Below are positions 1,743 through 63,973 of a DNA stretch of 64,000 nucleotides, piece by piece. Position 1 is the stretch's first letter; each line of letters starts with the position of its first letter. The translations under genes were made by a program, and so were the position numbers. The stretch is from the IMG/VR virus record IMGVR_UViG_3300022562_001969, positions 22,115 through 86,114 of that record; one strand, 5' to 3'. The notes below the pieces were generated by a model that was not told where the DNA came from, made no database searches, and saw nothing but the letters and a program-made list of their open reading frames with translations. This DNA comes from a virus.

Positions 1743-1779
1743 GTTTCAATCTCTCATTCGAGATAATCGGCCTTTGAAC
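1743..1779 (-). CRISPR. Solitary 37-nt CRISPR repeat identical to array 1 repeat
   Basis: GTTTCAATCTCTCATTCGAGATAATCGGCCTTTGAAC exact copy; preceded by a duplicated CGGTTTCAAT (1731-1750). Confidence 0.95.
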
Positions 1780-1922
1780 GCGGCGTAGGCCGGGGCCGGC
1801 GCTCGCAAGGGAATGACGCCCGGCCGCTCGGCCGCGCCAGGCGCTAACCCCAACCAGACCAGGAGGCCCAACAAGCCCAGCAGCCCCCATTTGATATATG
1901 ACAAAATATGGCTATAATTCAT
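1746..1922 (-). CDS. 58-aa single-TM peptide (type I toxin-like); not in ORF track
   Basis: GAGGAG RBS; MNYSHILSYIKWGLLGLLGLLVWLGLAPGAAERPGVIPLRAPAPAYAAFKGRLSRMRD*; stop codon lies inside the solitary repeat. Confidence 0.65.
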   Translation of the reverse strand: MNYSHILSYIKWGLLGLLGLLVWLGLAPGAAERPGVIPLRAPAPAYAAFKGRLSRMRD

Positions 1923-2009
1923 CTTAGTCTTTACTCCTCTCTTTATACGTCAGGAGTTTGGATAATGAGTGAAGCCCCCCGCCTATCAGTAAAGCGGGGG
2001 ACTTTTTTT
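1891..2009 (+). ncRNA. Putative cis-antisense RNA (with promoter) over the RBS of the 1746-1922 peptide
   Basis: TTGATA-16-TATAAT (1891-1918), anti-SD TTTACTCCTCTC, terminator CCCCCGC...GCGGGGGACTTTTTTT. Confidence 0.6.
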
Positions 2010-2032
2010 ATGATCTGATTGGTAACCCCCTA

Positions 2033-2317
2033 TTAAGGATTTCTGTATATATCGTGATGCCCAATTTTTCTGAAAACAAAGGTAATTTCGCCAGTTTCGT
2101 CGTCTTCTTCCCGGTGAAATGTAAAGACATACCCAAGTGTTATATGGCCTTCCCAGATATCAGAATGTCCCTTCATTGGCTTAATCCGTAATGAGGGATG
2201 ATAAGGATGGAAAGGCTGTTCTTTGAATAACTTAAAGCTTTTTTTTGCTTGGTCTCGAATGTCAGTCGGCAATTGCTCAAAACACTTGCGAAAATGCCGG
2301 GTTACACGATATTTCAT
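2033..2317 (-). CDS. RelE/ParE-superfamily toxin
   Basis: 94 aa, TRHFRKCFEQLP...HPSLRIKPMKG...IWEGHI...IGHHDIY. Confidence 0.85.
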   Translation of the reverse strand: MKYRVTRHFRKCFEQLPTDIRDQAKKSFKLFKEQPFHPYHPSLRIKPMKGHSDIWEGHITLGYVFTFHREEDDETGEITFVFRKIGHHDIYRNP

Positions 2318-2327
2318 TATTGATAGG

Positions 2328-2651
2328 TTATAATGTCTCCAGGAAACCATCGAGCGAGTCAAAATCTTCGTACTGTCCGGTTTGTAAGTCGCGTTCAACT
2401 TCGCGTTCCCCGGCTTGCCATTCCGGTGTCCAGAACCAGGCCTGGGTTTGATCGGTTTCAACCGTTATCAAGCTGGAGGATGTATATATATTGGCGATCA
2501 ATTGGCCGGTCATTACATTATTTCGCACATCAAATATATAAAAACAGGCCGGCGGTTGTCCCCATTCTTCTTCGCCAGGATGACTATGAATAAAAATAGC
2601 GGCTGATCCTTCTTCACTTGAAGCCAGCGTTTTGGTGTTACTTTCAATCAT
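2328..2651 (-). CDS. Putative antitoxin with N-terminal extension
   Basis: C-terminal QAWFWTPEWQAGEREVERDLQTGQYEDFDSLDGFL resembles antitoxins paired with this toxin group; lies directly upstream of the toxin. Confidence 0.75.
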   Translation of the reverse strand: MIESNTKTLASSEEGSAAIFIHSHPGEEEWGQPPACFYIFDVRNNVMTGQLIANIYTSSSLITVETDQTQAWFWTPEWQAGEREVERDLQTGQYEDFDSLDGFLETL

Positions 2652-3327
2652 GGTTGTTCCCCTGTATAAATGTTTTGACTTGATTTTCAATAAACCTGTC
2701 AACCTCGGTGATCCGGTCTGTTGGCTTAAATTCCCCTGTTTGTACCCACTTAAAAATAGCCTCGATAAAGAATTGTTTTGTATTCCCTAGATATGACTCT
2801 ATTTTGATCTCTATTTGCGGCGAACCATCATCAGTGTGGGGCATAACAAATCTAAGCCCCCCCCCCAGAATTGGCCTGCCAAATATGGATAATGACGCTT
2901 CAGGCTGTCTTAAGCGAGTGACCCATAATTCTTGAAATGCATGGTCACCTGAAGCTTGATAAAGATAACGAATAGATGCGTCACAAGATAAAATCTGACG
3001 CGATCCTGTCCAGGTAGACCGGAAAGCTTGAATAACCATATCGACGATTCTGGAAAATTCATCCGGTATATAGGTCGGATTAGGGTTAGCGATTATGAGT
3101 AACTGGCCGATAGGAGCATCAATATTGGCCCCAATTTTTATTTGAAGCGGCGGCGTCTTTTTGAGAATCAGTATCCCATTATCAGCTGTTAGCTCACCTC
3201 TATCATAATCAACGCCAGCGTTCAATATCGCTTGTTGAAAGGCGATCAATCGTTGTTTATTTATTTCAGGTGGGGGGGATAAAACATAATTAATTCCTAA
3301 ATGTAACAAAACCCCTTCATCATGCAT
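2644..3327 (-). CDS. Hypothetical protein, TIGR04255-like
   Basis: 227-aa alpha/beta protein, AT-rich; its end overlaps the antitoxin start; family call by recollection only. Confidence 0.5.
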   Translation of the reverse strand: MHDEGVLLHLGINYVLSPPPEINKQRLIAFQQAILNAGVDYDRGELTADNGILILKKTPPLQIKIGANIDAPIGQLLIIANPNPTYIPDEFSRIVDMVIQAFRSTWTGSRQILSCDASIRYLYQASGDHAFQELWVTRLRQPEASLSIFGRPILGGGLRFVMPHTDDGSPQIEIKIESYLGNTKQFFIEAIFKWVQTGEFKPTDRITEVDRFIENQVKTFIQGNNHD

Positions 3328-3363
3328 TCCTTAAACCCCTTTCTGTAAAAGTTTTGAAGATGA

Positions 3364-3984
3364 GTTTCAATCTCTCATTCGAGATAATCGGCCTTTGAAC
3401 CTGACGCAAAAAGCGGCGCAAAAAATGGCGCAGATTGAGTTTCAATCTCTCATTCGAGATAATCGGCCTTTGAACAGCATCTAACCACATCTAGCAATAG
3501 GCAAAAAAGAGGTTTCAATCTCTCATTCGAGATAATCGGCCTTTGAACATAAAAATAGTATACCATAAATTTGCCGAGTGTGCAGTTTCAATCTCTCATT
3601 CGAGATAATCGGCCTTTGAACTGATGTTAAGATTGTGGGGACGGTGGCCAGCTTGTTGTTTCAATCTCTCATTCGAGATAATCGGCCTTTGAACCAGATA
3701 ATGGCCAAGGTTGCCAAGTATTACGGTGTGTTTCAATCTCTCATTCGAGATAATCGGCCTTTGAACAGGACAAATGAGCGGAATTGTAGAGGTTGTAAAC
3801 GGGTTTCAATCTCTCATTCGAGATAATCGGCCTTTGAACAGTGACGATCCACTAGCAGGCGCAACTTTTTAAGGAGTTTCAATCTCTCATTCGAGATAAT
3901 CGGCCTTTGAACGCGGGCGCAATTGGATGAGGCCATCAATGAGGCGGGTTTCAATCTCTCATTCGAGATAATCGGCCTTTGAAC
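3364..3984 (-). CRISPR. CRISPR array 1: 9 identical 37-nt repeats, 8 spacers (35-38 nt); subtype uncertain (I-D/I-B/III-like)
   Basis: Repeats start at 3364, 3439, 3512, 3585, 3658, 3730, 3803, 3876, 3948; the minus-strand repeat ends ATTGAAAC; no leader and no cas genes. Confidence 0.97.
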
Positions 3985-4019
3985 AGCGGTCGTCCATCGT
4001 CTATCGTCGCCGGTCGTCG

Positions 4020-4615: not shown

Positions 4616-4687
4616 GACGATAGACGTTGATAATTGACAATTGACAATTGACAATTGACAATGGTCGTCCATCGTCCATCGTCGTCT
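4616..4687. repeat. Heptamer tracts: GACGAT(G/A) inverted pair around (TTGACAA)n
   Basis: Example of the dispersed heptamer families described in findings. Confidence 0.85.
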
Positions 4688-4704
4688 AATTGATTTCATG
4701 CGCG

Positions 4705-4733
4705 TTGACAGGCGGGCATAATATATGTATCAT
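4705..4733 (+). promoter_or_regulatory. Promoter giving a leaderless mRNA for the RHH protein
   Basis: TTGACA-17-TATCAT, ATG 7 nt after the -10, no SD. Confidence 0.7.
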
Positions 4734-4740
4734 ATGTAAT

Positions 4741-4911
4741 ATGACGACAGAACGCGAACCGGAAAAAATGAAACCGTATCCTGTAAATTTTCCGCCCAGC
4801 CTATGGCTGGCTGCCCGCCGTAAAGCGGGGGTGCGTTCGCTGGCCGGGATTATCCGGCGGCTGATAATAATGTGGTTAAGGGAGGAGGTTGTTCTGATGG
4901 ATGATGAATAG
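4741..4911 (+). CDS. Small ribbon-helix-helix (CopG/Arc-like) regulator
   Basis: 56 aa, PYPVNFPPSLWLAARRKAG-SLAGIIRRLI beta-alpha-alpha pattern. Confidence 0.65.
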   Translation: MTTEREPEKMKPYPVNFPPSLWLAARRKAGVRSLAGIIRRLIIMWLREEVVLMDDE

Positions 4912-4954
4912 ATAATAGATAATTGTCAATTGTCAATTATCAATTGTCAATTAT

Positions 4955-5061
4955 AAACAGAGGGCCATCCGGGTGCAACCGGTGGCCCCGCTTACATACT
5001 ATATCAGGGGCACAGCATGCAAGGTACTTTTTATTTTACCAACGATAAAAAAAATAGACAA
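4955..5061 (-). ncRNA. Putative cis-antisense RNA over the start of ORF 5017-5205
   Basis: TTGTCT-17-TAAAAT (5061-5033); terminator GGGCCACCGG...CCGGATGGCCCTCTGTTT. Confidence 0.55.
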
Positions 5062-5205
5062 ATGCCGCCGCCCCCTTTCAATTTTTTGTTAGTTTTCCCC
5101 ACAGGCGTGGGGGTGAACCGGGAGGAGCTATGGCAAAGCGTAGGGTTAAGTGCCCGCAGTGCGGGTATAGACACATCATCAACATTCCCAGTCGGAAAGC
5201 GATGA
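5017..5205 (+). CDS. Small leader ORF reading through a solitary CRISPR repeat
   Basis: 62 aa; has the antisense architecture; overlaps the next gene. Confidence 0.35.
   Translation: MQGTFYFTNDKKNRQMPPPPFNFLLVFPTGVGVNREELWQSVGLSARSAGIDTSSTFPVGKR
5092..5120 (+). CRISPR. Solitary type I-E repeat abutting an RBS
   Basis: GTTTTCCCCACAGGCGTGGGGGTGAACCG immediately followed by GGAGGAGCTATG. Confidence 0.92.
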
Positions 5206-5882
5206 CGGTGGGCGTGCGAGCCAAACGGATCACGGCCAACCAGTTTGAATACACCCTAAACGGTCCCGCCGAAATCTCGGATGACGCCAGATTTAGCACG
5301 GTGGCTGACGACCTGGTCCTGTCCGGCGCGTTTGGCGGCGCGTTGGGAGCCGTGGCGGGGGGCGCGGTGGCTGTCTTCGCGCCGGAGTACGCCCTGCACG
5401 GGGCCGGCGTGGGCATGAGCGCCGGGGTAGCCCTGGCCTGGGGCTGGTTGTGCGCGGAACATAACCAACGGCTGAAACGGGTGTTGCCCTGGTTCGTTGA
5501 GCAGCGGCAAAACTGGAAACGGCCCGAGCTGGGGGACGATGGCGAGATCAGGCTGACGGTAGATCATCTCCATCGGGACAGCTACAGCGAGCAAGGCCGC
5601 TCCATCGCCCTCCTGGGGACCCTACCGGTCGATGTGGAGCGCTTCCGGGCCTGGGCGCAAGGGGCCATCCGGGGCGATAGCCTGGCCATCAAACACTGGA
5701 CGGGAGCCGAACGGCCTTTCAGCCGGGATGAGTATGATCGCCTGCTGCTCAAAATGAGGGCGGCCAATATAGTGACCAATCTGCCGGGGAAGGGCAATAC
5801 CCTGACCAATCCCGGCAAGCACGCTCTGAAACGTATCCTGGCCGAGACCCCCTCCCCTACCCCGGCTGAGGAGCGTGCGTGA
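5130..5882 (+). CDS. Hypothetical membrane protein (Zn knuckle, 2 TM, C-terminal wHTH-like)
   Basis: CPQC motif, Gly/Ala-rich TM hairpin, GKGNTLTNPGK tail; strong RBS. Confidence 0.7.
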   Translation: MAKRRVKCPQCGYRHIINIPSRKAMTVGVRAKRITANQFEYTLNGPAEISDDARFSTVADDLVLSGAFGGALGAVAGGAVAVFAPEYALHGAGVGMSAGVALAWGWLCAEHNQRLKRVLPWFVEQRQNWKRPELGDDGEIRLTVDHLHRDSYSEQGRSIALLGTLPVDVERFRAWAQGAIRGDSLAIKHWTGAERPFSRDEYDRLLLKMRAANIVTNLPGKGNTLTNPGKHALKRILAETPSPTPAEERA

Positions 5883-6088
5883 TGCCAAAAAGCCCGGAAA
5901 ATGCACGCACGCACGTGCCCGCCCGCTCCAGATGGGGCTATAGCGTCTCCTATTGGCCCAGCAAAAGCGAATTCAGGATTGTTAACTATGGCCAGGGGGA
6001 GCTGATCAAGTCGTTGCTGTTTTGGTGGCGTTTGCGCCGCCATCCCTCATTTAAGAATGTACGATGGTCGTTAATCACTGATTGGTAA
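5879..6088 (+). CDS. Hypothetical protein
   Basis: GTGA overlap with the upstream gene. Confidence 0.45.
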   Translation: MMPKSPENARTHVPARSRWGYSVSYWPSKSEFRIVNYGQGELIKSLLFWWRLRRHPSFKNVRWSLITDW

Positions 6089-6094
6089 GGTGCT

Positions 6095-6910
6095 ATGACA
6101 AAACCAGACAATAAACAGAAACCTTTCATCATCCGCTATAGAGAATTTTGGACCAATGTCCAGGCGATGATCTTCTACCCCTTCCAGAATATCGGCCCTT
6201 TCATTGTGGCCGCTATGCCGGCGCTCTTCACCGGCCATAGCGTCTACACCTGGTACGCGGAAACCAGCGCCGCCTGGCTGGCCATGCTCATTAGCTGCGT
6301 GGTGGCTATTGCCATGGAGGCGATCAATATCAACGTGGTCCATACATCCCTCGATCTTTTTGAGCAAAAACAAAATGGCAAGGGTTGGCTGATGGCCCTT
6401 TTCTCCCTCATTGTAATGGCCCTGGTTTCGACCGTTATCGGCTTCAGTGAAGGGGACCTATCCCCCTTGATCAAGGGGTTGGCCGTCTCCAGCCCCTGGC
6501 TCACCGGCATTGTCTACCTGGCGGTCGGGATGGCGCAGGGCATCCACCAGGAGAAACAGCAAGCCGATTTGGACAGAAACGAGCGGCGTCAATCCGAGGC
6601 GGAACAACGTGAGTTCGAGCGACAATTGAAGCTAAAAGAGATAGACAAAAATCACGAATTACGATTAGCCAAAATTGAAGCGGCTAAAAGTGTTCAATCG
6701 AGTGTCAAGCCAACTGTTCAATCGAGTGTCAAGGGGTTGACACCTGAAGATGTCAAAAACGCTGTTTCCCAATCGGAAAAGCCGGTTAACATTACACAAT
6801 TGGCTAAAGATTTACAAGTAAGCCGGACAACACTTTACACTAAACTGAACGGTCTGGTAGATAGTGGGGAAATGATTAAAAATGGGAACGGTTACGAGGT
6901 AATCAAATAA
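6095..6910 (+). CDS. Multi-TM + coiled-coil + C-terminal HTH protein
   Basis: 4 TM segments, QEKQQADLDRNERRQ coil, NITQLAKDLQVSRTTLYTKL HTH. Confidence 0.8.
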   Translation: MTKPDNKQKPFIIRYREFWTNVQAMIFYPFQNIGPFIVAAMPALFTGHSVYTWYAETSAAWLAMLISCVVAIAMEAININVVHTSLDLFEQKQNGKGWLMALFSLIVMALVSTVIGFSEGDLSPLIKGLAVSSPWLTGIVYLAVGMAQGIHQEKQQADLDRNERRQSEAEQREFERQLKLKEIDKNHELRLAKIEAAKSVQSSVKPTVQSSVKGLTPEDVKNAVSQSEKPVNITQLAKDLQVSRTTLYTKLNGLVDSGEMIKNGNGYEVIK

Positions 6911-6924
6911 TTTATGAAGACCGC

Positions 6925-7059
6925 TTGGTCAAACGCTGTTTATGGTGCAATGGTTTAGGTTATGATACCTACCTGGGCCACACTTGCGATATGTGTAACG
7001 GCAAAGGTGGAAAATGGGAACGGGTGAGGGTACTAGTAGGTGAGGAAGTAATAGAATGA
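6925..7059 (+). CDS. Small DnaJ-type zinc-finger peptide (start uncertain); not in ORF track
   Basis: CLWCNGLG...CDMCNGKG; stop overlaps the next ATG (ATGA). Confidence 0.5.
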   Translation: MVKRCLWCNGLGYDTYLGHTCDMCNGKGGKWERVRVLVGEEVIE

Positions 7060-7547
7060 GAAAAATAATGCTCTTGGCATTAACTTTAATTATCTTGACA
7101 GGCTGCAATAGTAGCGTCAAAAACGCTAAAGCCGAAGCCATACGTCACCAGACTGACCGCGCAGACGATTGGCACATTGCCAGATTAGAGGAATCCGAGG
7201 CTTTAATGCCAGTCAGAATTATGGTCAAGGAAGTGCTTTGGTATACCGGTATGGTTAGCGGTATCCTTCTCCTTTTAGGTAGCGGCCTGGCCGGTGGCTG
7301 GTGGATGGTAGGCACATCAGTCAACAGGGTGAAATTTCACCGGGTCAGTCTGGATGTCCAGACAAGGCAGTATCCACTGTTGGTTTATGGCAACGGCCGG
7401 CGGGTCTTCAACCCGAATACCGGCGAACGGCTATTGTTGGCCGAAAACAGTGAAGCGTCTTTGACCCGGATCGAGGCCAGTACAAAGGTACAACTGGCGG
7501 GGATGCTACCGGATCGGATGATAATAGATGATCCTCATCATCACTAA
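7056..7547 (+). CDS. Putative lipoprotein with an extra TM segment
   Basis: MRKIMLLALTLIILTGC lipobox. Confidence 0.75.
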   Translation: MRKIMLLALTLIILTGCNSSVKNAKAEAIRHQTDRADDWHIARLEESEALMPVRIMVKEVLWYTGMVSGILLLLGSGLAGGWWMVGTSVNRVKFHRVSLDVQTRQYPLLVYGNGRRVFNPNTGERLLLAENSEASLTRIEASTKVQLAGMLPDRMIIDDPHHH

Positions 7548-8011
7548 CCCCACCAGGCGCAGCCGGTCATCGAGCGGCAGATTATCATGGTGGTGGGGCC
7601 GGGTCAGTCGCGGGGGGAGATGTGGCGGCAGTTAAGCGCGAGCTATGACGATAGACGACGGTAGACGATAGACGATAGACGGCCGGTGACCGTTTAGCTA
7701 TCGTCCATCGTCCATCGTCGAATGTTCGCGTGCGAACACTTACCTTAGATCTACTCTTCGCCGGTGGCGTAACCCAGTATCTGACCTATCGGCCGCCCGG
7801 TGACAATCTCCAGCAAAGTGTCAGTGTCATCCGGACCAACCTCATCAAATCGCCTCGCCAAATGCGATACAACCTGAAATACGGCTTCCTGGACGGCCAG
7901 GGCCTCGGCCGGGTCTATCTGGTCGGCCGGAGTGTTACCAGCACTCGGGCGGCCTGCCAATCAAATCCTTACCAGGTGGACGCGGATGAGGGGAGTTTTA
8001 TGGTTAGTGAG

Positions 8012-9435: not shown

Positions 9436-11085
9436 TTATATCTCCAACCGCCCTTGTGTTGGCCCTGCTCTTTCTTCTCTTTGGGCTTGTTTGAAGGTTC
9501 CATAGGCGGGCGGCATTTGTACACTTGCCCCCCCTAACAACGCCTCAATGGTAAGTATCTGAATTTTAGGGTATTTTTGGCCCCAGGCTACAGCCTCATA
9601 AAAACCGGCTGACACCGCCTCCTGGATCATCGGCTGCGTTGGTTCTTCCAGGGTGATAAAAACGCCGATAGCCGCCTTTTCCCGTTCAACCGTCCCAACC
9701 AGATCACGAATATCCCGGCTTGACACCTTGCCGCTCTTGACTTGCGCTAAAACCCGCTTAGGTTTGCCTTTTGCCGTATCAATAAAGGTGATAACCCCAT
9801 CGATCCCTTTATCCGCTCCTTTTTTGCCCTTTTTACTGCCCTGGGTCGCTTTGCCCGGTCTGGCCCTAACTAACGACAAGGCCCACCATTCAAACTGAAA
9901 GCGGTCTTGTTCTGCCAGAAAACGAGCAGAGCCTATTGTTTCAGGCTCGCCCTTGACTTCAAACGTTGTGTCCGGAAAGGCTTCTTGTAGACGATATTTT
10001 TGCAAGGCAATAGATAAATGGGTGATGTCAATACCTATCCACTTTCGGCCTAGTTTTTCAGCGGCTACTATCGCAGTACCACAACCGCAAAATGGATCAA
10101 GGACTACATCACCAGGGTTGCTACTGGCTGAAATGATACGTTCTAGTAAAGGTAAAGGTTTTTGTGTAGGATAACCCAGACGTTCAGCATCAGAACTTTG
10201 CAAAGGATTTATATCAGCCCAAATGTTTGTAATAATTGTTCCTTTTTGTTCGTTCAAAAAACGTTTAAGCGCAGGACGTTTACTAAAATCATAGGAACCA
10301 TCTTTGTGACGTGGATAATAAATGCGCCCTTCATCGTGTAACTTTTGCATGGTTTCAGGTTTATAACGCCAACCTTTAGCAGGATACGGAAAGCCTAGCC
10401 ATTCGTACATCATATTGGGTCTAGGATTTGGACTTGTCATATTATCCAAACGATATAAACCGCGTCCATTATTATCATCAAATCGGTAATTTTTTTGGAT
10501 ATATTCCAAATCATATGGTCCATATTGAACAATAAACAGGTTTTTTTTGGAACGTTTATAAAAAAGAATTATGTCAGCAATATCAGCAAATTTCGTCTTT
10601 GCGTCACTATGGGCTGACTGTCGTTTCCAAATAATTTCATTGCCAAAGTTCTCAGCCCCAAAAATAGTATCAAGGATGACCTTCAAATAATGGCTTGCTG
10701 TTGGGTCACAATGCAGATATAAGCTACCAGTAGGGTTCAATACCCGATGAAGTTCAACCAATCGACTAGCCATCATAACCAAATAAGCCATCATTTGGTT
10801 AGCGCCAATAAAATCACGCATGGCCCCAATCATCTTACTTATATGATCTGGTGATTCTGTTATCAATTCGTGATAGGTTTCCTCAGCGGCCGCGTTCCAG
10901 TGCCAAGTATCATCAAAAGCCGTTATCTGCGCCTGGCTATCTTGCCCACTTTCATCTTTGAATAAGACATTATAGCTGCGCTTTGAGTTAAAGGGGGGGT
11001 CAAGATAGACTAAATCAATACTTTCATCTGCTATGTAATCACGTAGAATTTGAAGGTTATCGCCATAATAAAGGGTATTTTTCAT
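9436..11085 (-). CDS. N4/N6 DNA methyltransferase fused to a C-terminal Mrr-like endonuclease domain
   Basis: DLVYLDPPF, VLDPFCGCGT, GADKGIDG...QVKSG; start MKNTLYYGDNL. Confidence 0.92.
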   Translation of the reverse strand: MKNTLYYGDNLQILRDYIADESIDLVYLDPPFNSKRSYNVLFKDESGQDSQAQITAFDDTWHWNAAAEETYHELITESPDHISKMIGAMRDFIGANQMMAYLVMMASRLVELHRVLNPTGSLYLHCDPTASHYLKVILDTIFGAENFGNEIIWKRQSAHSDAKTKFADIADIILFYKRSKKNLFIVQYGPYDLEYIQKNYRFDDNNGRGLYRLDNMTSPNPRPNMMYEWLGFPYPAKGWRYKPETMQKLHDEGRIYYPRHKDGSYDFSKRPALKRFLNEQKGTIITNIWADINPLQSSDAERLGYPTQKPLPLLERIISASSNPGDVVLDPFCGCGTAIVAAEKLGRKWIGIDITHLSIALQKYRLQEAFPDTTFEVKGEPETIGSARFLAEQDRFQFEWWALSLVRARPGKATQGSKKGKKGADKGIDGVITFIDTAKGKPKRVLAQVKSGKVSSRDIRDLVGTVEREKAAIGVFITLEEPTQPMIQEAVSAGFYEAVAWGQKYPKIQILTIEALLGGASVQMPPAYGTFKQAQREERAGPTQGRLEI

Positions 11086-11461
11086 TGGTTGACCACCTGA
11101 CCAGGCCAGGCTATAACAAATGGCAAGTGAACGGTTCACCATCATGCCCGTGGAGAATACCCTGATTTTATCCGAGTTTGGGATGACAGGCAAAAAAGAC
11201 GGTCGTCCATCGTCCATCGCCCATCGTCGGTTACTTGTTTTCAGGCCAAAAGGGTATATAATTGATTTAGCGACATTTTGGCTTGATAGTCTGATCAAGA
11301 TATAATAGTAAAAGAAGCTCCAACCTCTGACAGGCTATCTGTCCAAAGTGTCGCAACTTGAGAGGTCTGGGGCTTCTTTTTGGTGCTTCAGGATTTTCCG
11401 TGGGAACCACTATATCGCCATACAAGAAAAGTAAGCCAACTTTCAAAGATAGGTTCGCAAG

Positions 11462-13513
11462 ATGACTGAAAGCCGCCAACCTGGTAGGAATTTTAGGGAT
11501 GAATTACTTAAGATTTTGTCAGGGATGACCGCTTTGGATGACCCTGACAACCGATATCGGCTATTGGACAAGTTGCCACTAGAGGCAGTAGCAACCATAC
11601 GACGCAATTCTGCTAAGGGGACCGACCTATACAATATCGTTCAGGCTGCCGAAGGATGGGGACAATTGACCTCTGGAGAGTGGGCCTTGGTCGTTATCGC
11701 CCAAAACGCCCTATCTCTAGTTAAAGGAACCCACCCCGGTCGTCAGCTAGAGGCTCTTTTAGCTGAAAGGGTTATTCATCAGGCCAAGCCAGGCCGGCAG
11801 ATCCCCCTTGATCTGCCAGCGCGAGAGGAGAATTTTATAGACCGTAAGGACGAACTGGTATCTCTACTCACCGAATTACAACCAGGACGAGTAGTCACTT
11901 TGACTGGGCCGGGGGGCATGGGCAAGACTGCCCTGGCCGCGGAAGCCGTTGGCCAACTGGTGGTTGATCATAAGCCCCCTGAGCGTTTCCCGGATGGCAT
12001 CTTCTTTCATAGCTTTTACAACCAACCCCAAGCCGGTTTAGCCCTGGAAAGTCTGGCCCTGGCCTTTGGCGAGGAAGCCAGGCCAACGGCCCAGGTAGCG
12101 GCACAACGGGCGTTGAGCGGCCGGCAGGCCTTATTGGTGTTGGATGGCGCTGAAGATGCGGATGACTTGGCGGCCGTGTTAGCGGTGCGCGGGGGGTGTG
12201 GGGTTTTAATAACCAGCCGTAATCGGGGCGATGCGCCGGCCGTGTTGCAAGACCTGGCGCCCCTCAAACAGCAAGACGCCCTGGACTTATTACAACGCTG
12301 GGCTGAAGCGCAGCTTGATGACCAGGCGGCGGCCATTGCCATCTGCGAACTGGTGGGGAGGCTGCCGCTGGCGGTGCGTCTGGTAGGGCGGTATCTGCGT
12401 GAGACCGGGGAGACGGCCAGCGAGTATCTAGCCTGGTTACAAGAAACCCCGTTAGAGGCCCTGAACCAGGGGCGGCGACGCGAAGAAAGTATACCTGTCT
12501 TACTTGAGCGCAGTCTAAAGCAGGTCAGTGAGGCGGCGCGGCAAGTGTTGGCGGTGGCCGGCCGGCTGGCGCTGGCCCCGCTGCAACAAGAGGTGATGGG
12601 GGCCGCTTTGGCAGCCGAAGCGCGTGAGGTGAGACAGTGGTTAGGAGAATTGGTGCGCTATGGCTTGCTGAGCCGGGACAAAGGGCGTTATGCCATCAGT
12701 CACGCCCTCATTCACACCTACGCCAGTGAGCGGCTCAATGTGGCGGAGGAGATGGTCGAGCGGTTGGTGGCTTTCTATGTCGCTTTGGCTGAACACTTTA
12801 GCCAGCAAGGATTGGCAGGCTACCAGGCGCTTGATGGGGAGCGGCCTCACCTGCTGCGCTTGATTGCAGGCTGCGCGAAAGGAGATGATTGGCTGGGGGT
12901 TCGCAAGCTGGTCTGGGCCATTGATGGTTATTTGTCAATTCAGGGTCACGCCAGCGAACGACAAACTGCCCTAGCGACAGGGCTAACAGCCGCCCAACAA
13001 CTGGGCGACCGCCAAGATGAAGGGGCATTTTTAGGCAGCCTGGGGACCGCCTACTACGACCAGGGGGAGCTGGACAAAGCCATCGCCCATTCTCAGCAAG
13101 CCCTGGTCATCCACCGCGAGATTGGCTACCGCCAGGGGGAGGCTGCTGTTTTAGGCTACCTGGGAACCGCCTACAGCATCCAGGGGGAGCTGGCCAAAGG
13201 CATCGACCATTATCAGCAAGCCCTGGTCATCCACCGCGAGATTGGCTACCGCCAGGGGGAGGCTTATAATTTAGGCATCCTGGGTCTCGCCTACCGCGCC
13301 CAGGGGGAGAGGGCCAAAGCCAGAGAATACTTAGCCCAGGCGCTCACTATTTTTGAGGCGATCAAATCGCCCCAGGCAGACGCAATTCGTGAACAGTTGA
13401 CTATGCTGACTATGTTAGGCCGCCTCCATATACTCTTAGCAATGTGTCAGGCCATCTACGAGAAAGGATTGATGAGGCAGCTTTTGCCGCTTTTCAAAAG
13501 GCTTATTCACTAA
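11462..13513 (+). CDS. EAD-like domain + STAND (NB-ARC) NTPase + TPR protein
   Basis: GPGGMGKT Walker A, LLVLDG Walker B, GRLPLA motif, TPR repeats (HREIGYRQGEA); N-terminal helical EAD8-like segment. Confidence 0.88.
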   Translation: MTESRQPGRNFRDELLKILSGMTALDDPDNRYRLLDKLPLEAVATIRRNSAKGTDLYNIVQAAEGWGQLTSGEWALVVIAQNALSLVKGTHPGRQLEALLAERVIHQAKPGRQIPLDLPAREENFIDRKDELVSLLTELQPGRVVTLTGPGGMGKTALAAEAVGQLVVDHKPPERFPDGIFFHSFYNQPQAGLALESLALAFGEEARPTAQVAAQRALSGRQALLVLDGAEDADDLAAVLAVRGGCGVLITSRNRGDAPAVLQDLAPLKQQDALDLLQRWAEAQLDDQAAAIAICELVGRLPLAVRLVGRYLRETGETASEYLAWLQETPLEALNQGRRREESIPVLLERSLKQVSEAARQVLAVAGRLALAPLQQEVMGAALAAEAREVRQWLGELVRYGLLSRDKGRYAISHALIHTYASERLNVAEEMVERLVAFYVALAEHFSQQGLAGYQALDGERPHLLRLIAGCAKGDDWLGVRKLVWAIDGYLSIQGHASERQTALATGLTAAQQLGDRQDEGAFLGSLGTAYYDQGELDKAIAHSQQALVIHREIGYRQGEAAVLGYLGTAYSIQGELAKGIDHYQQALVIHREIGYRQGEAYNLGILGLAYRAQGERAKAREYLAQALTIFEAIKSPQADAIREQLTMLTMLGRLHILLAMCQAIYEKGLMRQLLPLFKRLIH

Positions 13514-13852: not shown

Positions 13853-13981
13853 GCCGCCCATCGTCCATCGTCCATCGTCGCCAAGGCGAAGCGACCACCG
13901 ACGACACAACACCGCCGCCCATCGTCCATCGTCCATCGTCGCCAAGGCGAAGCGACCACCGACGACACAACACCGCCGCCC
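13853..13981. repeat. 61-bp tandem repeat (about 2.1 copies) built on TCGTCCA heptamers
   Basis: Period 61 visible; inverted relative of the 15900-16120 units. Confidence 0.9.
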
Positions 13982-13993
13982 GCCGTCCATCGT

Positions 13994-14935
13994 CTATCGT
14001 CCATCGTCCGTCGTCAGCCCCCGGTACGCCCGGGCCCGGGCCTCATCCCGGCCGCGCAGATAGACCGAAGTCGTGGCGATGTCCGCATGGCCCAATTGGT
14101 CGCGCACCTTGTCCAGGGAGACGCCGGCTTCGAGGGCCAGCAAAGCCGAGGTGTGGCGCAGGGCGTGAAAGTAAGCCCGGGGCAAGCCGGCCGCCCTGGC
14201 CCGGCGCTTGAACAGTTGGCTCACCCCGGAGGCGGTCAGGCCGGGCCCCGGGCGGCCCCAGCGCCAGGCCGGGAAGACATGAGCGGGCCGGTGGCCACCC
14301 TCGGCCAGATAACGTTGCCAGGCCCACAAATCCCCTTTGACCGCCAAATTAAAATAGACCACCCGCCCCCGGCGCGTCTTGGCCGTCTCCGCCGCCACCT
14401 CGGCGGCCAGCTCGGCCAGGCGCAGTTGCTCCCAGCGCAGGGCGGCCACTTCCCCGGCCCGGCAGCCGGTGACCAGGGCAAAATGGACCAGGGCCAGGTC
14501 GCGCAGCTCACGCCCCTCGCCGGCGGCGGCCGCCCGGCGCAACTGGGCCAGCAGGCGCTCCACTTCGGCCCGGCTGAGGGCCACCGGCGGCAGGTGGGGC
14601 CGGGGCGGCAAGAGGCGCAATTGGGCAATTTGCCGGGTCGGGTTGCGGTTGGCCTCAATGATCTCTAATTGTTCCAAAAAGTTGAAAAATGCGCGCAGGT
14701 GGGTATAATAGGTGCGCACCGTCACCTCTCCACCGGCGGTGGAGTCTATCCAGCCCATTACCTGACCGGCCGTGACCGGCCAGGCCGGGCCGATGTAGTC
14801 GGCGAAGCGGCTTAAGATATTGGTGTAGTTCTGTAGCGTCTTCGGCCGCCACGAACGTCTCTTGAGAGTGATAAAACCTTTAATGTGCCCTCCCAGAATG
14901 GTATCCGGGAGGGACACAGAAGGCGGCGTAGCCAT
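13994..14935 (-). CDS. Tyrosine recombinase/integrase (XerC/D-like)
   Basis: TGCRAGEV, HALRH, LGHADIATTSVY catalytic motifs. Confidence 0.95.
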   Translation of the reverse strand: MATPPSVSLPDTILGGHIKGFITLKRRSWRPKTLQNYTNILSRFADYIGPAWPVTAGQVMGWIDSTAGGEVTVRTYYTHLRAFFNFLEQLEIIEANRNPTRQIAQLRLLPPRPHLPPVALSRAEVERLLAQLRRAAAAGEGRELRDLALVHFALVTGCRAGEVAALRWEQLRLAELAAEVAAETAKTRRGRVVYFNLAVKGDLWAWQRYLAEGGHRPAHVFPAWRWGRPGPGLTASGVSQLFKRRARAAGLPRAYFHALRHTSALLALEAGVSLDKVRDQLGHADIATTSVYLRGRDEARARAYRGLTTDDGR

Positions 14936-14957: not shown

Positions 14958-15038
14958 CTTCGGAGTCAAAACCTTTAGGTTTTTCTTCGGAGTCGAAACC
15001 TTTAGGTTTTTCTTCGGAGTCAAAACCTTTAGGTTTTT
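14958..15038. repeat. Three tandem 27-bp repeats upstream of the integrase
   Basis: CTTCGGAGTC(A/G)AAACCTTTAGGTTTTT at 14958, 14985 and 15012. Confidence 0.95.
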
Positions 15039-15079: not shown

Positions 15080-15108
15080 CGGTTCACCCCCACGTCTGTG
15101 GGGAATAC
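15080..15108 (-). CRISPR. Solitary type I-E repeat upstream of the integrase
   Basis: GTATTCCCCACAGACGTGGGGGTGAACCG on the minus strand. Confidence 0.92.
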
Positions 15109-15221: not shown

Positions 15222-15614
15222 CTACGCCGCCGTGCGTTGCTGGTATTCCACCAGCATCTCGACCGGATCGCGGCCGGCCACGCGGCCCAGGGCCTCTTCC
15301 CAGTCGCCGCTGTGGAGGATGGCGTTGAGGGATTCGACGGCCTGCACCAGGGCCACCTCAAGGTCCAGCAGGGCGACGATGTCCACCGCCCCACTCGCCT
15401 CTCTGGTAGGGTTGGCGGCGAAGTCAGTCAGGGCCGCAATGGCCTCGACCAGTCTCGCCAGCCCGGGCAACTCAGCGCCGGGGGCTACTTCTGCTTCCGG
15501 CGCCAGCTCGCCCAACGCCAGGCTGGCCGCCAGCAGACCGGTTGCCGCCAGAAATCCGCGACGGTCTATTTGGTTGTTGGTTTGGGGGTGTGCTAAAATA
15601 CGTTCAGTTCTCAT
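15222..15614 (-). CDS. Hypothetical protein with twin-arginine-like signal
   Basis: DRRGFLAATGLLAASLAL; GAGGAG RBS; N-terminus ILAHPQTNNQI resembles HEPN copy 1 ILAQPQTNPQI. Confidence 0.7.
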   Translation of the reverse strand: MRTERILAHPQTNNQIDRRGFLAATGLLAASLALGELAPEAEVAPGAELPGLARLVEAIAALTDFAANPTREASGAVDIVALLDLEVALVQAVESLNAILHSGDWEEALGRVAGRDPVEMLVEYQQRTAA

Positions 15615-15675
15615 GGTAAGCTCCTCTTACTGTGTGAATTAGGGCCGGTTTGATGTTTCAGCATCAGGCCGGCTC
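15591..15675 (+). ncRNA. Putative cis-antisense RNA over the start of 15222-15614
   Basis: TGcTAAAAT 15591-15599; hairpin GCCGGTTTGATG...CATCAGGCCGGC. Confidence 0.55.
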
Positions 15676-15799: not shown

Positions 15800-15868
15800 G
15801 GTATCTCCTTACTGTGAGAGTATGGTTTCGCCTCGTTTTTTAGCCCGCGAGGCGAAGCCTGTTTTTTT
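15756..15868 (+). ncRNA. Putative cis-antisense RNA over the start of 15611-15799
   Basis: TTGCGG-17-TATACT; terminator GGTTTCGCCTCG...CGAGGCGAAGCCTGTTTTTTT. Confidence 0.6.
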
Positions 15869-16160
15869 GGACGATAGACGATGGACGATGGACGGCGGGC
15901 GGCGGTTTGACGGGCGGCGGTCGTCCATCGTCGGTCGTCGCTTCGCCTTGACGACGATAGACGATGGACGGCGGTTTGACGGTCGTCGGTCGTCCATCGT
16001 CGGTCGTCACTTTGCCTTGGCGACGCTAGACGATAGACGATAGACCGCGGTTTGACGGTCGTCTATCGTCCATCGTCGGTCGTCACTTCGCCTTGGCGAC
16101 GCTAGACGATAGACGATGGATGGCTGTATGGCATCGTCGGTCGTCGGTCGTCGGTCGTCG
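15869..16160. repeat. About three imperfect ~70-bp units built on GACGAT(G/A)/TCGTCCA heptamers
   Basis: CGGTTTGACGG...CTTCGCCTTG(G)CGACG repeated. Confidence 0.85.
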
Positions 16161-16293: not shown

Positions 16294-16381
16294 GCGGTTT
16301 TAAGCTTCGCGACGATGGACGATAGACGACCGGCGACTAACGACGACCGTCTCTTTTGTTTATTTGTTTATTTGTTTATTT

Positions 16382-16740
16382 ATTTCAATCCACGCCCCCC
16401 GTGAGGGGAGCGACTTCGGTGAAGGAAAAAATTCCTTAACCGATGGGGTTTCAATCCACGCCCCCCGCGAGGGGAGCGACATAAAAACAGGCTTCGCTTT
16501 GCGGGCTATTTCAATCCACGCCCCCCGCGAGGGGAGCGACTTGGCCGGTCAAGGTGATCCGCCAACCGGTTGCGGTTTCAATCCACGCCCCCCGCGAGGG
16601 GAGCGACTTGCTGAAACGTTCGTGGTAGACTGTTTCAGTTTGTTTCAATCCACGCCCCCCACAAGGGGAGCGACGCGACCAGCTCATCACTATCCAATTC
16701 AAAAAGCGTTTCAATCCACGCCCCCCACAAGGGGAGCGAC
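16382..16740 (-). CRISPR. Type I-C CRISPR array: 6 repeats (33 nt), 5 spacers (33, 27, 34, 34, 33 nt)
   Basis: GTCGCTCCCCT(CGC/TGT/CAC)GGGGGGCGTGGATTGAAA(C/T); repeats start at 16382, 16448, 16508, 16575, 16642, 16708. Confidence 0.96.
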
Positions 16741-16910
16741 GGCAACATCTGGGTATACCCAGATTATACATAATATATATTGTGGCGCCTTTTTTGTCAA
16801 TCGGACAACCGGCTCAATATTGCTCGCTAAATGTTCTTTTTTGGGGTGGTTAAGGTACAAAATAGGCGCGAACCCTCCGGGCAATGGCTGGGCGCTTGGG
16901 GTTCGCAAAC
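16741..16910 (-). promoter_or_regulatory. Type I-C leader with promoter
   Basis: GCGAACCCC...GGGTTCGCGC inverted leader motif 16866-16907; TTGACA-17-TATATT 16800-16772. Confidence 0.85.
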
Positions 16911-16927
16911 CCAGATTAAAGGATGAT

Positions 16928-17010
16928 CGGTTCACCCCCACGCCTGTGGGGAATACTCGTCCATCGTCCATCGTCGCGAAGCGGTTCACCCCCCCGCCTG
17001 TGGGGAATAC
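16928..17010 (-). CRISPR. Type I-E mini-array: 2 repeats, one 25-nt spacer
   Basis: GTATTCCCCACAGGCG(T/G)GGGGGTGAACCG at 16928-16956 and 16982-17010. Confidence 0.95.
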
Positions 17011-17197
17011 GCTCCAAAACGTTATAAAGTTTTAATGTTACAACCGTTCGCTAGCTTAGAACACGGATATGGGGAGGGTAACGGATTTTCGACCTGGCTA
17101 TAAGTAATCCGTTACCTTCTGCCAATCCGCTGTTCTCAAGCTAACCGTGCAATAGCAGCAACGCCCAAACGGTCGTCCATCGTCCATCGTCAGCCGT

Positions 17198-17503
17198 CTA
17201 TCGTCCACCGTCCATCGTCACCCCCGGGCAGCCTTCGACAAGCTCAGGCTGCTGCGGTCGTCCATCGTCGGTCGTCCATCGTCGGTCGTCCATCGTCGCC
17301 CCCCGGGCGGCCAGCGCCGTATTAAGCGCCTTGAGTTCCGCCTCAAGATCACCTATTTTTTTTTGCAAAGCGGTTTCGTTGGCGGCCATCTTGGCCAACC
17401 GCTTCTCCAGGGTAATATTCAGGAGAAGCGCCTGGCTTAATAGTGAGCCCCAGCGTTGGCCGAGGGTATCGACCAGCTCCAAAATTTGCTGTTCGGTCAT
17501 CAT
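17198..17503 (-). CDS. Small coiled-coil protein (C-terminus encoded by repeats)
   Basis: ATGA overlap with the upstream gene. Confidence 0.55.
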   Translation of the reverse strand: MMTEQQILELVDTLGQRWGSLLSQALLLNITLEKRLAKMAANETALQKKIGDLEAELKALNTALAARGATMDDRRWTTDDGRPQQPELVEGCPGVTMDGGR

Positions 17504-57009: not shown

Positions 57010-57081
57010 TCAACCGTCCTCGTTTTGACAATTGACAATTGACAATTGACAATTAACAATTGACAATTGATCTCCAATCTC

Positions 57082-57294
57082 TCATTGATGACACCCCATC
57101 ACCCCTACCGGCGCATTAAGAATTTTGACCAACTCCTCGCCTTCGACCCGGTAAACCGCCCCGTTGACGATCCCCACCTTCACCTGACCATAGCTGGTCG
57201 ATACCCAGACCTCATCGGTGATAAATAGCTTGTCCGGGATGTCACTCAGCTTTAGGTGATGTTGGCCGGTGTTGTTTTTAATCTCGATTTTCAT
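57082..57294 (-). CDS. Hypothetical protein flanked by TTGACAA tracts
   Basis: 70-aa ORF. Confidence 0.5.
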   Translation of the reverse strand: MKIEIKNNTGQHHLKLSDIPDKLFITDEVWVSTSYGQVKVGIVNGAVYRVEGEELVKILNAPVGVMGCHQ

Positions 57295-57378
57295 CTTTCG
57301 TCATCAACTCGGATTGATAATTGATAATTAACAATTGACAATTGACAATTATTAACAATTGACAATTGACAGATGTGG

Positions 57379-63395: not shown

Positions 63396-63472
63396 TGATT
63401 ACTCTCCTGGTCAAAAGGTTCTTCCCATCGTCCATCGTCTATCGTCCACCGTCTATCGTCCATCGTCTATCG

Positions 63473-63973
63473 TCAATCGTCCATCGTCGTCCTTACCCCA
63501 AGCCCCTCAAACACCGCCAACTCCTGCCAATCACAATAGGGGCAGAAGACAATATCTTCCATCTCCCCCTCAATCACATCCCGGCCGGCAATTAGACCGG
63601 CCCGACCGCAATCCGGACATACTCGCTCAAGGTCGGCCGGGGCCGGGGCGTCCTCTCCACCCTCCGGCCGGTAATCCTCAGCCTTGAGCCGGCCTTCGAC
63701 CACCTGGCCGCCCGTAATCGCCTGGCTCTGGGCCACGCCCAGGCGCTGGTTGATCGTCGTCCGCATTATATCCAGATCGTGGCTAACCAAGAGCCGCTCC
63801 AGATAGACATCCAGCCAGGCGGCCATCTGGTAATTGATCGTCCGCGCCTGCGTCCCCAGGGCGACCAGGTCGGCGCAACTCAAAGCGGCCTCATCCGGGA
63901 CGGGTCGGACCAGCGGGGCCACCAATTGAGGCTCCTGCACGCTGGGCAGCGGCAGCCCGATGCAATCCCCCAT
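63473..63973 (-). CDS. Hypothetical protein with C-terminal Zn ribbon (may extend beyond the window)
   Basis: CPDC...CPYC. Confidence 0.6.
   Translation of the reverse strand: MGDCIGLPLPSVQEPQLVAPLVRPVPDEAALSCADLVALGTQARTINYQMAAWLDVYLERLLVSHDLDIMRTTINQRLGVAQSQAITGGQVVEGRLKAEDYRPEGGEDAPAPADLERVCPDCGRAGLIAGRDVIEGEMEDIVFCPYCDWQELAVFEGLGVRTTMDD

What the first reader, a model, noticed from the sequence alone, without database searches (positions are those of the whole stretch)
5092..5132. Solitary I-E repeat fused directly to a ribosome-binding site
Seen: the repeat 3' end (GTGAACCG) abuts GGAGGAGCTATG of gene 5130, so the pseudo-spacer is the RBS and first codons. AAG-GGAGGAG (PAM plus 7-nt seed) also occurs at 4878-4887 in the upstream RHH gene; this match is weak. 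Established: Cas6e leaves an 8-nt 5' handle on which Cas5/Cas7 assemble. Inference: host Cascade proteins would coat the RBS, making a Cas-responsive translational switch for the membrane operon, and/or the RNA acts as a Racr decoy.
Basis: partly seen in the sequence, partly recalled or inferred. Interest (0 to 1): 0.75.

Follow-up and report, generated by a model that had tools for sequence, protein, structure and literature searches.

The report
Lone CRISPR repeat before phage gene
A temperate phage with no cas genes carries an intact single copy of its host's type I-E CRISPR repeat directly in front of a gene's ribosome-binding site; it is most likely an RNA decoy against the host's CRISPR proteins (a known trick), and its proposed role as a translation switch is untested.

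Summary
A canonical 29-nt type I-E repeat lies at 5092-5120 (+). Its 3' handle GTGAACCG is followed at once by GGAGGAGCT-ATG, and the N-terminus of that gene is conserved in 17 homologues, so the start codon is real. The window is part of a complete 86-kb tailed temperate phage in which I found no Cas6e or Cas7e. The repeat is solitary locally but not in the genome. Four more I-E copies exist: a two-repeat mini-array, another lone copy and a decayed copy. A I-C array and a 37-nt-repeat array are also present. Near-identical repeats form arrays beside a full I-E cas operon in an Anaerolineae genome. The best reading is a viral solitary repeat unit, a Racr-type decoy, transcribed inside an mRNA leader like the published acr-racr bicistron. 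Cas6e cutting at 5112/5113 would also trim the leader of gene 5130. The translational-switch idea is unproven. The AAG-GGAGGAG match is at chance level, and 21 lone or mini-array copies of this repeat subtype in other viral contigs show no comparable RBS fusion. One parallel exists: in that Anaerolineae genome, repeat-like hairpins sit directly before the cas6e and cas2 start codons. Earlier notes of this scan describe repeat-RBS fusions on other DNA. Upstream DNA of homologues and RNA ends could not be examined.

The parts
4705..4733 (+). sigma-70-like promoter (TTGACA-17-TATCAT), the only strong + strand promoter match upstream of the repeat
   Evidence: 11 of 12 consensus positions. No + strand promoter match lies between 4734 and 5092.
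4768..4911 (+). small ORF (47 aa from ATG 4768; 73 aa from TTG 4690) that looks like a ribbon-helix-helix regulator by eye; flanked by inverted heptamer tracts at 4627-4662 and 4921-4952
   Evidence: No Pfam or PHROG hit, so the RHH label is unconfirmed.
4962..4988 (+). GC-rich hairpin with no U tract on the + strand; more terminator-like when read on the - strand
   Evidence: A minus-strand promoter-like site lies at 5061-5033.
5092..5120 (+). type I-E solitary repeat unit: stem 5097-5102 / 5107-5112, loop 5103-5106, handle 5113-5120; predicted Cas6e cut between 5112 and 5113
5121..5132 (+). Shine-Dalgarno GGAGGAG, CT, and the ATG of gene 5130; the would-be first 12 nt of a guide
5130..5882 (+). 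conserved 250-aa protein: N-terminal CPxC beta-ribbon, a long helical hairpin with a hydrophobic segment (about residues 62-85), and a C-terminal winged-helix-like domain; no known family
5879..7547 (+). rest of the apparent operon: a 69-aa ORF (overlapping GTGATG junction), a 271-aa multi-TM protein with a C-terminal HTH, and a 163-aa lipoprotein-like/TM protein
11132..11160 (-). decayed I-E repeat copy (5 mismatches, stem lost), 4 nt after a TTGCCT-17-TAAAAT promoter-like site and 48 nt before the ATG of an N6/N4 methylase-Mrr fusion gene
15080..15108 (-). second intact lone I-E repeat, in the leader of the integrase gene; the next 12 nt match a nearby AAG-flanked site at 14988-14999
16928..17010 (-). 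I-E mini-array (two repeats, 25-nt spacer); the spacer matches 16305-16329 at 24 of 25 with an AAG flank

Best explanation
The element is a viral solitary repeat unit of type I-E, a copy of the host's CRISPR repeat kept by a temperate siphovirus in which I found no Cas6e or Cas7e. It is transcribed in sense, most likely from the promoter at 4705-4733, as part of the leader between the small regulator gene and gene 5130. In a host with a matching I-E system, Cas6e would bind the hairpin and cut between 5112 and 5113. The upstream RNA would keep Cas6e on its 3' hairpin and could load Cas7, forming a non-productive Racr-type complex that draws Cas proteins away from real crRNAs. The phage's other I-E repeat RNAs would add to this effect. 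As a by-product, gene 5130's mRNA would begin with a 5'-OH and the 8-nt handle, 8 nt before its SD. Shown: the repeat, its integrity, its orientation, its junction with a real RBS and start codon, no Cas6e or Cas7e match in the phage, and matching arrays with a full I-E operon in Anaerolineae. Inferred: transcription, Cas6e cleavage, decoy activity, and any effect on translation of gene 5130.
For: The repeat matches the phage's own consensus at 28 of 29 positions. It differs by 1-2 positions from arrays in Anaerolineae and Caldilineales genomes. The closest genome, G001, has Cas3, Cse1, Cas7e, Cas5e, Cas6e, Cas1 and Cas2 next to that array. The complete 86-kb DTR phage record gave no Cas6e or Cas7e match, and it encodes a tape measure, tail proteins and an integrase. 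All four I-E loci in the phage point the same way as the gene or array downstream of them, and all lie between genes. One copy has decayed while four are intact, so decay does happen here and intactness carries information. Similarity among nine copies stops exactly at the repeat borders. Arrays with this repeat occur in the same and in other sediment metagenomes (table 5c). Published precedent: viral SRUs act as Racrs, including two I-E ones, and RacrIC1 is co-transcribed with acrIC5 on one RNA (PMC10651486).
Against: No stand-alone small-RNA architecture is present. There is no nearby promoter match and no terminator after the repeat, unlike the lone copies in L154 and L158, which are followed by terminators. 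If the promoter at 4705 is used, the upstream product would be about 370 nt and would carry an ORF. No recognisable acr gene lies nearby. The host is unknown: G001 lacks the phage's I-C and 37-nt repeats, lacks its heptamer tracts, and its array has no spacer against the phage. No expression data exist.
Confidence: 0.45

Rival explanations
1. Cas-responsive control of the gene 5130 operon. The repeat is placed against the RBS so that host Cas6e or Cascade sets the output of the membrane-protein operon. One route is Cas5/Cas7 assembling on the 8-nt handle and covering the SD and AUG, which would repress. The other is leader removal, which leaves a stable 5'-OH mRNA with a free SD and would activate.
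For: The junction is exact: handle, then SD, then ATG 9 nt after the repeat, and the start codon is real. Three of the four I-E loci in the phage sit in leaders of protein genes: 5130, the methylase and the integrase. In Anaerolineae genome G001, which carries the closest repeat, repeat-like elements with shared derived changes lie 3 and 2 nt before the cas6e and cas2 start codons. These changes keep the stem (CUCUAC/GUGGAG) and turn GGGGGUGA into the SD GGAGGUGA. The 12-mer GGAGGTGAACCG occurs only at these two places in 7.9 Mb. Cascade tolerates longer guides by adding Cas7 subunits (PMC5009729, found; title and abstract only). The Racr paper reports that Cas6f-made 5'-OH ends are more stable.
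Against: There is no conservation evidence. Among 11 lone copies and 10 mini-arrays of this repeat subtype in IMG/VR, none has an SD plus ATG against the repeat. Only 1 of 30 Anaerolineae cas6e loci shows the cas6e/cas2 arrangement, and it is found in no other of 56 genomes of that order. The sign of the effect cannot be predicted. The handle-only product of RacrIF1 had no inhibitory activity.
Confidence: 0.2
2. A scar without a function of its own. The repeat is left over from recombination with a host or phage CRISPR array, or from an ectopic Cas1-Cas2 event, and marks the border of a gene cassette in a mosaic accessory region. Its position at the RBS only reflects where the cassette begins.
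For: The repeat lies in a 17-kb accessory region packed with three repeat families, toxin-antitoxin genes, a STAND NTPase, a methylase and an integrase. Similarity between copies ends exactly at the repeat borders. One copy is visibly decaying. Shmakov et al. judge many SRUs in cas loci to be spurious duplications or substrates for recombination (PMC10120712).
Against: Four of five copies are intact, with perfect stems and identical handles. All are co-oriented with the downstream genes. Published viral SRUs of this kind have tested activity.
Confidence: 0.27
3. A crRNA-like guide. The handle plus the next 27-32 nt (RBS and first codons of gene 5130) would load into host Cascade. It would then target either related phages that carry the same gene start behind a permissive PAM (exclusion of competitors) or the AAG-GGAGGAG site at 4878 (self-regulation).
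For: The same phage has a mini-array spacer with a 24 of 25 AAG-flanked self match, and a lone repeat with a 12-nt AAG-flanked match. This fits the published short-spacer Cracr/CreR logic (10.1101/2024.10.29.618823). The phage's own copy is protected by the CCG flank (for the flank; protection by the repeat-derived flank is established I-E knowledge). A small hairpin, CCCGC-AGT-GCGGG at 5153-5165, lies about one spacer length downstream.
Against: The best second match of this pseudo-spacer in the phage is 12 nt with a non-canonical GAT flank, at another RBS. The AAG-flanked one is only 7 nt. No match of 8 nt or more was found in the G001 cas locus. There is no second repeat. The downstream hairpin lies inside the conserved CPxCG codons and may be incidental.
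Confidence: 0.08

Closest known systems
Viral solitary repeat units acting as RNA anti-CRISPRs (Racrs), including RacrIE1/IE2 and the acrIC5-racrIC1 bicistron (Camara-Wilpert et al. 2023, PMC10651486)
   Same: A single host-type CRISPR repeat lies between genes of a temperate phage that shows no Cas6e or Cas7e. It has an intact Cas6 hairpin, and the host lineage carries the matching subtype. A repeat sharing one transcript with a protein gene has a precedent.
   Different: The repeat precedes a gene, directly at its RBS, rather than following an acr gene. No nearby promoter or terminator defines a small RNA. No acr homologue was recognised. Activity is untested.
Cracr / CreR / CreA crRNA-like regulatory RNAs (Liu et al., bioRxiv 10.1101/2024.10.29.618823; Shmakov et al. 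2023, PMC10120712)
   Same: They are repeat-derived RNAs in phages that reprogram host Cas proteins. The same phage carries a short-spacer (25-nt) I-E mini-array of that style.
   Different: These RNAs need a spacer-like part with at least about 9-10 PAM-proximal matches to a promoter. The sequence after the 5092 repeat has no such target here.
Standalone repeat-like sequences inside CRISPR-cas loci (Shmakov et al. 2023, PMC10120712)
   Same: The G001 repeat-like elements before cas6e and cas2 belong to this class and share the repeat-next-to-start-codon layout with the phage element.
   Different: That paper discusses transcriptional guides, inhibition by small RNAs and recombination. The words 'ribosome' and 'translation' do not occur in its main text. 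The phage element is outside any cas locus.
Engineered Cas6-family cleavage sites placed between a 5' UTR and an RBS (Csy4 insulators; from my own knowledge, not checked here)
   Same: A Cas6-type hairpin lies immediately upstream of an RBS, and cleavage yields an mRNA with a short, defined leader.
   Different: Those are synthetic and work without the rest of Cascade. Here the element is natural and would meet a full I-E system.

Membership tests
Type I-E CRISPR repeat | About 29 nt with a GC stem of 6-7 bp, a tetraloop and an 8-nt 3' part ending AACCG | tested here: met
   CCCCAC-AGGC-GTGGGG followed by GTGAACCG
Type I-E CRISPR repeat | The same sequence forms arrays with about 32-nt spacers next to I-E cas genes somewhere | tested here: met
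   arrays with a 61-nt period and 1-2 mismatches in Anaerolineae and Caldilineales. Cas3, Cse1, Cas7e, Cas5e, Cas6e, Cas1 and Cas2(CT1978) beside the G001 array.
Viral solitary repeat unit (SRU) / Racr candidate | A single repeat with no second repeat within about 100 bp, intergenic, in a virus or plasmid | tested here: met
   the nearest other copy is 6 kb away; complete DTR phage. The repeat lies between ORFs 4690-4911 and 5130-5882.
Viral solitary repeat unit (SRU) / Racr candidate | No cas genes on the element | tested here: met
   no Cas6e or Cas7e match in the 86-kb record. Other cas families were not searched one by one.
Viral solitary repeat unit (SRU) / Racr candidate | A promoter within about 250 bp upstream (the selection rule in PMC10651486) | tested here: not met
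   the nearest + strand promoter match ends at 4733, about 360 bp upstream. The consensus scan covers only sigma-70-type sites, and the phage encodes its own sigma factor.
Viral solitary repeat unit (SRU) / Racr candidate | Host carries the matching CRISPR-Cas subtype | tested here: inconclusive
   The host was not identified. The closest repeat owners are Anaerolineae with I-E. Of 401 sampled Anaerolineae genomes, 51 have Cas6e.
Viral solitary repeat unit (SRU) / Racr candidate | Bound and cut by Cas6, and inhibits interference | not testable with these tools
   No RNA run holds the locus. This needs an experiment.
Cracr / CreR-like regulatory crRNA-like RNA | A spacer-like part with at least 9-10 PAM-proximal matches to a PAM-flanked target | tested here: not met
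   the only AAG-flanked match is 7 nt, and the 12-nt match has a GAT flank.
Cracr / CreR-like regulatory crRNA-like RNA | A second (often degenerate) repeat closing a mini-array | tested here: not met
   no copy with up to 7 mismatches nearby. Only a 5-bp hairpin at 5153-5165 lies inside the coding sequence.

The most novel reading that the evidence does not exclude
Repeat-RBS fusions are natural Cas6e/Cascade-operated mRNA switches in this repeat lineage. The phage would use the host's Cas6e or Cascade level to set the output of its membrane-protein operon. The host lineage would use the same module to feed back on cas6e and cas2 translation, as the G001 repeat-like hairpins at both start codons suggest.
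Probability: 0.15. Interest if true: 0.75.

Novelty: new member of a known kind. Interest (0 to 1): 0.42.

Why it matters
If it is a Racr, it adds a type I-E example from an uncultured Chloroflexota-type phage and shows decoy repeats riding inside ordinary mRNA leaders rather than as separate small-RNA genes. If the RBS fusion is functional, Cas6e or Cascade would act as a post-transcriptional regulator of non-CRISPR genes in nature, both for a phage and for the host's own cas6e and cas2. The key papers read here do not discuss that role. It is directly testable with a reporter and a cloned I-E system.

Tried and rejected
A search of 401 Anaerolineae genomes gave six distant hits.
- Expression data: no RNA holder was listed. 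Laying contigs of four sediment runs showed host-type arrays and fragments of the phage, but no relative's contig bridging the repeat-gene junction.
- G001 as the actual host is rejected. It has no I-C or 37-nt repeat, no heptamer tract and no gene 5130 homologue, and the 8-kb loci with matching arrays, G001's among them, hold no spacer match to the phage.
- The AAG-GGAGGAG self-target is rejected as chance.
- Rfam at gathering thresholds reported only a tRNA in the window and flagged none of the CRISPR repeats.
- Fold z-scores of the short hairpins are not significant, as expected for about 50-nt inputs.
- The function of gene 5130 stays unknown. There were no Pfam or PHROG hits. AlphaFold gave mean pLDDT 69.7. 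Foldseek found only weak winged-helix matches in PDB, and one unnamed viral protein at E = 1.6e-05 in BFVD. The Atlas gave nothing usable.
- L005 and L045 first looked like further repeat-start-codon fusions, but the ORFs behind them are only about 19-20 codons.
- Three literature searches found no paper on Cas6e-controlled natural RBSs.

Full report
**What is there.** The stretch 5092-5120 on the + strand reads GTTTTCCCCACAGGCGTGGGGGTGAACCG. It has a 6-7 bp GC stem (CCCCAC/GTGGGG), the tetraloop AGGC and the 8-nt tail GTGAACCG, which is the layout of a type I-E CRISPR repeat. The next bases are GGAGGAG, CT and ATG (5130). A pattern search gave four matches in the window at up to 3 mismatches, against none in 100 shuffles. 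The hairpin forms in the predicted fold and the Shine-Dalgarno sequence stays single-stranded. The ATG at 5130 is the real start of a real gene. There are 33 homologues in the protein collection. In an alignment of 18 of them, M1, K3, C8, P9 and C11 are invariant, although the source gene call started 24 codons later.

**Where it lies.** The window is bases 22115-86114 of a complete 86,114-bp virus record with 144-bp direct terminal repeats. The record encodes a tape measure protein, tail proteins and a tyrosine integrase, so it is a temperate tailed phage. Six-frame searches of the whole record found no Cas6e and no Cas7e.

The repeat is solitary in the usual sense, with no copy within kilobases, but it is not unique in the genome. 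The other copies are all on the - strand:
- an intact lone copy at 15080-15108, upstream of the integrase gene;
- a two-repeat mini-array at 16928-17010 with a 25-nt spacer;
- a decayed copy at 11132-11160 (5 mismatches, stem lost), just after a promoter-like site and 48 nt before a methylase-Mrr gene.

The same 17-kb accessory region also holds a six-repeat type I-C-like array (16382-16740) and an array plus a lone copy of a 37-nt repeat (about 1743-3990). Every I-E locus points the same way as the gene or array downstream of it.

**Whose repeat it is.** A degenerate scan of one genome per species returned I-E arrays with a 61-nt period from many phyla. The closest variants, 1-2 mismatches and with the GGGGGTGAACCG tail, are in Anaerolineae, Caldilineales and other Chloroflexota. 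The best match is an Anaerolineae chromosome (G001). Its array repeat is ATATTCCCCACAGGCGTGGGGGTGAACCG, and its neighbouring genes hit Cas3, Cse1, Cas7e, Cas5e, Cas6e, Cas1 and the I-E type Cas2. G001 is not the host itself. It lacks the phage's other two repeat families, its heptamer tracts and gene 5130, and the part of its array held in L087 has no spacer against the phage. Contigs from the source sediment and from two other sediment studies contain arrays with this repeat. Cas6e was found in 51 of 401 sampled Anaerolineae genomes.

**Transcription context.** The only strong + strand promoter match upstream is TTGACA-17-TATCAT at 4705-4733, in front of a 47-aa ORF that looks like a ribbon-helix-helix protein by eye but has no Pfam or PHROG hit. 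Between that ORF and the repeat lie an inverted heptamer tract, a hairpin without a U tract, and an AT-rich stretch. No terminator follows the repeat. The simplest reading is one transcript: regulator, repeat, gene 5130 and the next three ORFs, whose junctions overlap or are short. Three of these four proteins have hydrophobic segments, so 'membrane operon' is a fair description. The function of gene 5130 stays unknown: a CPxC ribbon, a helical hairpin and a winged-helix-like C-terminal domain.

**What the downstream 'pseudo-spacer' could target.** I scanned the phage for PAM-proximal matches to the sequence that follows each I-E repeat, ignoring every sixth position.
- The mini-array spacer has a 24 of 25 match with an AAG flank at 16305-16329.
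- The lone repeat at 15080 has a 12-nt AAG-flanked match at 14988-14999.
- The sequence after the 5092 repeat has nothing comparable. Its best second match is 12 nt with a GAT flank at another RBS. The AAG-flanked match is only the 7-nt SD.
- GGAGGAG occurs 13 times in the genome, so one copy with an AAG flank is unremarkable.
- No match of 8 nt or more exists in the G001 cas locus.

A guide-type (Cracr/CreR-like) reading is therefore not supported for this copy, although it is attractive for the two others.

**Is the RBS fusion a recurring design?** I collected every IMG/VR contig with this repeat subtype, 26 stretches in all, and looked behind each terminal repeat. Among 11 lone copies and 10 mini-arrays, none has an SD plus ATG against the repeat. 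Some, such as L154 and L158, are followed by terminators, which is the stand-alone small-RNA layout. An alignment of nine copies shows that similarity stops exactly at the repeat borders.

One parallel turned up unexpectedly in G001's own cas operon. There, ATATTCTCTACAGAGGTGGAGGTGAACCG ends 3 nt before the cas6e ATG, and ATATTCTCTACAGGCGTGGAGGTGAACCG ends 2 nt before the cas2 ATG. Both share the changes C7T, C9T and G20A. These keep the stem (U-A and G.U pairs) and turn GGGGGUGA into GGAGGUGA, a perfect SD. The canonical hairpin is the predicted fold at the cas2 site but not at the cas6e site. The 12-mer GGAGGTGAACCG occurs only at these two places in the 7.9-Mb genome. The arrangement is idiosyncratic, however. 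It is present in 1 of 30 Anaerolineae cas6e loci examined and in no other of 56 genomes of that order. Earlier notes of this scan describe repeat copies at cas6 and cas2 start codons, and in front of phage genes, on other DNA. I did not test those.

**Reading.** Published work shows that viral solitary repeats act as RNA anti-CRISPRs. Cas6f binds and cuts RacrIF1, and the part upstream of the cut nucleates a Cas6f-Cas7f filament that lacks Cas5 and Cas8. Two I-E candidates were active, and RacrIC1 shares one transcript with acrIC5. The 5092 element meets the structural definition of such a unit except for a nearby promoter. I therefore take a Racr-type decoy embedded in an mRNA leader as the most likely function (0.45). 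Cas6e cutting would also leave gene 5130's mRNA with a 5'-OH and the handle 8 nt before its SD.

Whether that matters is open. Alternatively the trimmed 5'-OH RNA could be more stable, as the Racr paper reports for Cas6f products, and translate well. I give a genuine switch 0.2, a functionless recombination or insertion scar 0.27, and a guide function 0.08.

**Limits.** The two most useful checks could not be made. RNA ends could not be examined because no RNA run holds the locus. Three literature searches found no report of a natural Cas6e-controlled RBS. The words 'ribosome' and 'translation' do not occur in the main text of the survey of repeat-like elements in cas loci.

Noticed in passing
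L165 13601-13634 and 15251-15282 (G001:C1, Anaerolineae I-E cas operon): Repeat-like elements with shared, stem-preserving changes end 3 and 2 nt before the start codons of cas6e and cas2, and their GGAGGUGA serves as the SD. The first one also encodes the last 10 residues of Cas5e. GGAGGTGAACCG occurs nowhere else in the 7.9-Mb genome. Further repeat-like copies lie inside cas2 (15424-15452, in frame) and after it (15632-15660).
   Followed up: partly
window 4627-4662, 4921-4952, 7647-7719, 13853-14015, 15868-16160, 17173-17298, 57025-57371, 63425-63488 and others: Intergenic tandem heptamers of two families (TTGACAA/AATTGTC and TCGTCCA/GACGATG) flank many gene cassettes across the phage, often in inverted pairs. 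The I-E mini-array spacer is made of the second family. The one tract tested (three TCGTCCA units) is absent from G001, and the TCGTCCA family occurs in 16 IMG/VR stretches.
   Followed up: partly
L007 3979-4075; L081 1-735; window 16382-17010: A type I-E repeat lies next to a type I-C-like array (repeats ending ATTGAAAC) in three unrelated contigs: this phage, a Latescibacterota MAG contig (one spacer length apart) and an unclassified MAG contig.
   Followed up: no
window 5153-5165: A small hairpin, CCCGC-AGT-GCGGG, lies about one spacer length after the lone repeat, inside the conserved CPQCG codons. This phage has Gln at that position where most homologues have Glu, and the Gln codon lengthens the stem by one pair. 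This may be incidental.
   Followed up: no
window 5033-5061 (-) and 4962-4988: A minus-strand promoter-like site (TTGTCT-17-TAAAAT with TG) points at a hairpin that has a U-rich tail only on the minus strand. Together they would give an antisense RNA of about 70 nt between the regulator gene and the repeat.
   Followed up: no
L036 1350-1420 (G001:C1 around 5921390): A chromosomal lone I-E repeat lies 11 nt after a TTGCTT-17-TATACT promoter-like site, 5.2 kb from a second array with a variant repeat. It is a host-encoded SRU candidate.
   Followed up: no
window 11462-13513 (+) and 9436-11085 (-): The phage accessory region encodes a STAND NTPase (EAD8, NB-ARC/NACHT, TPR) and a DNA methylase fused to an Mrr-type nuclease domain. 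It also encodes its own sigma-70 family factor (768-1724).
   Followed up: partly
L165 5235-8942: The G001 Cas3 carries an N-terminal HTH-WYL-WCX extension.
   Followed up: no
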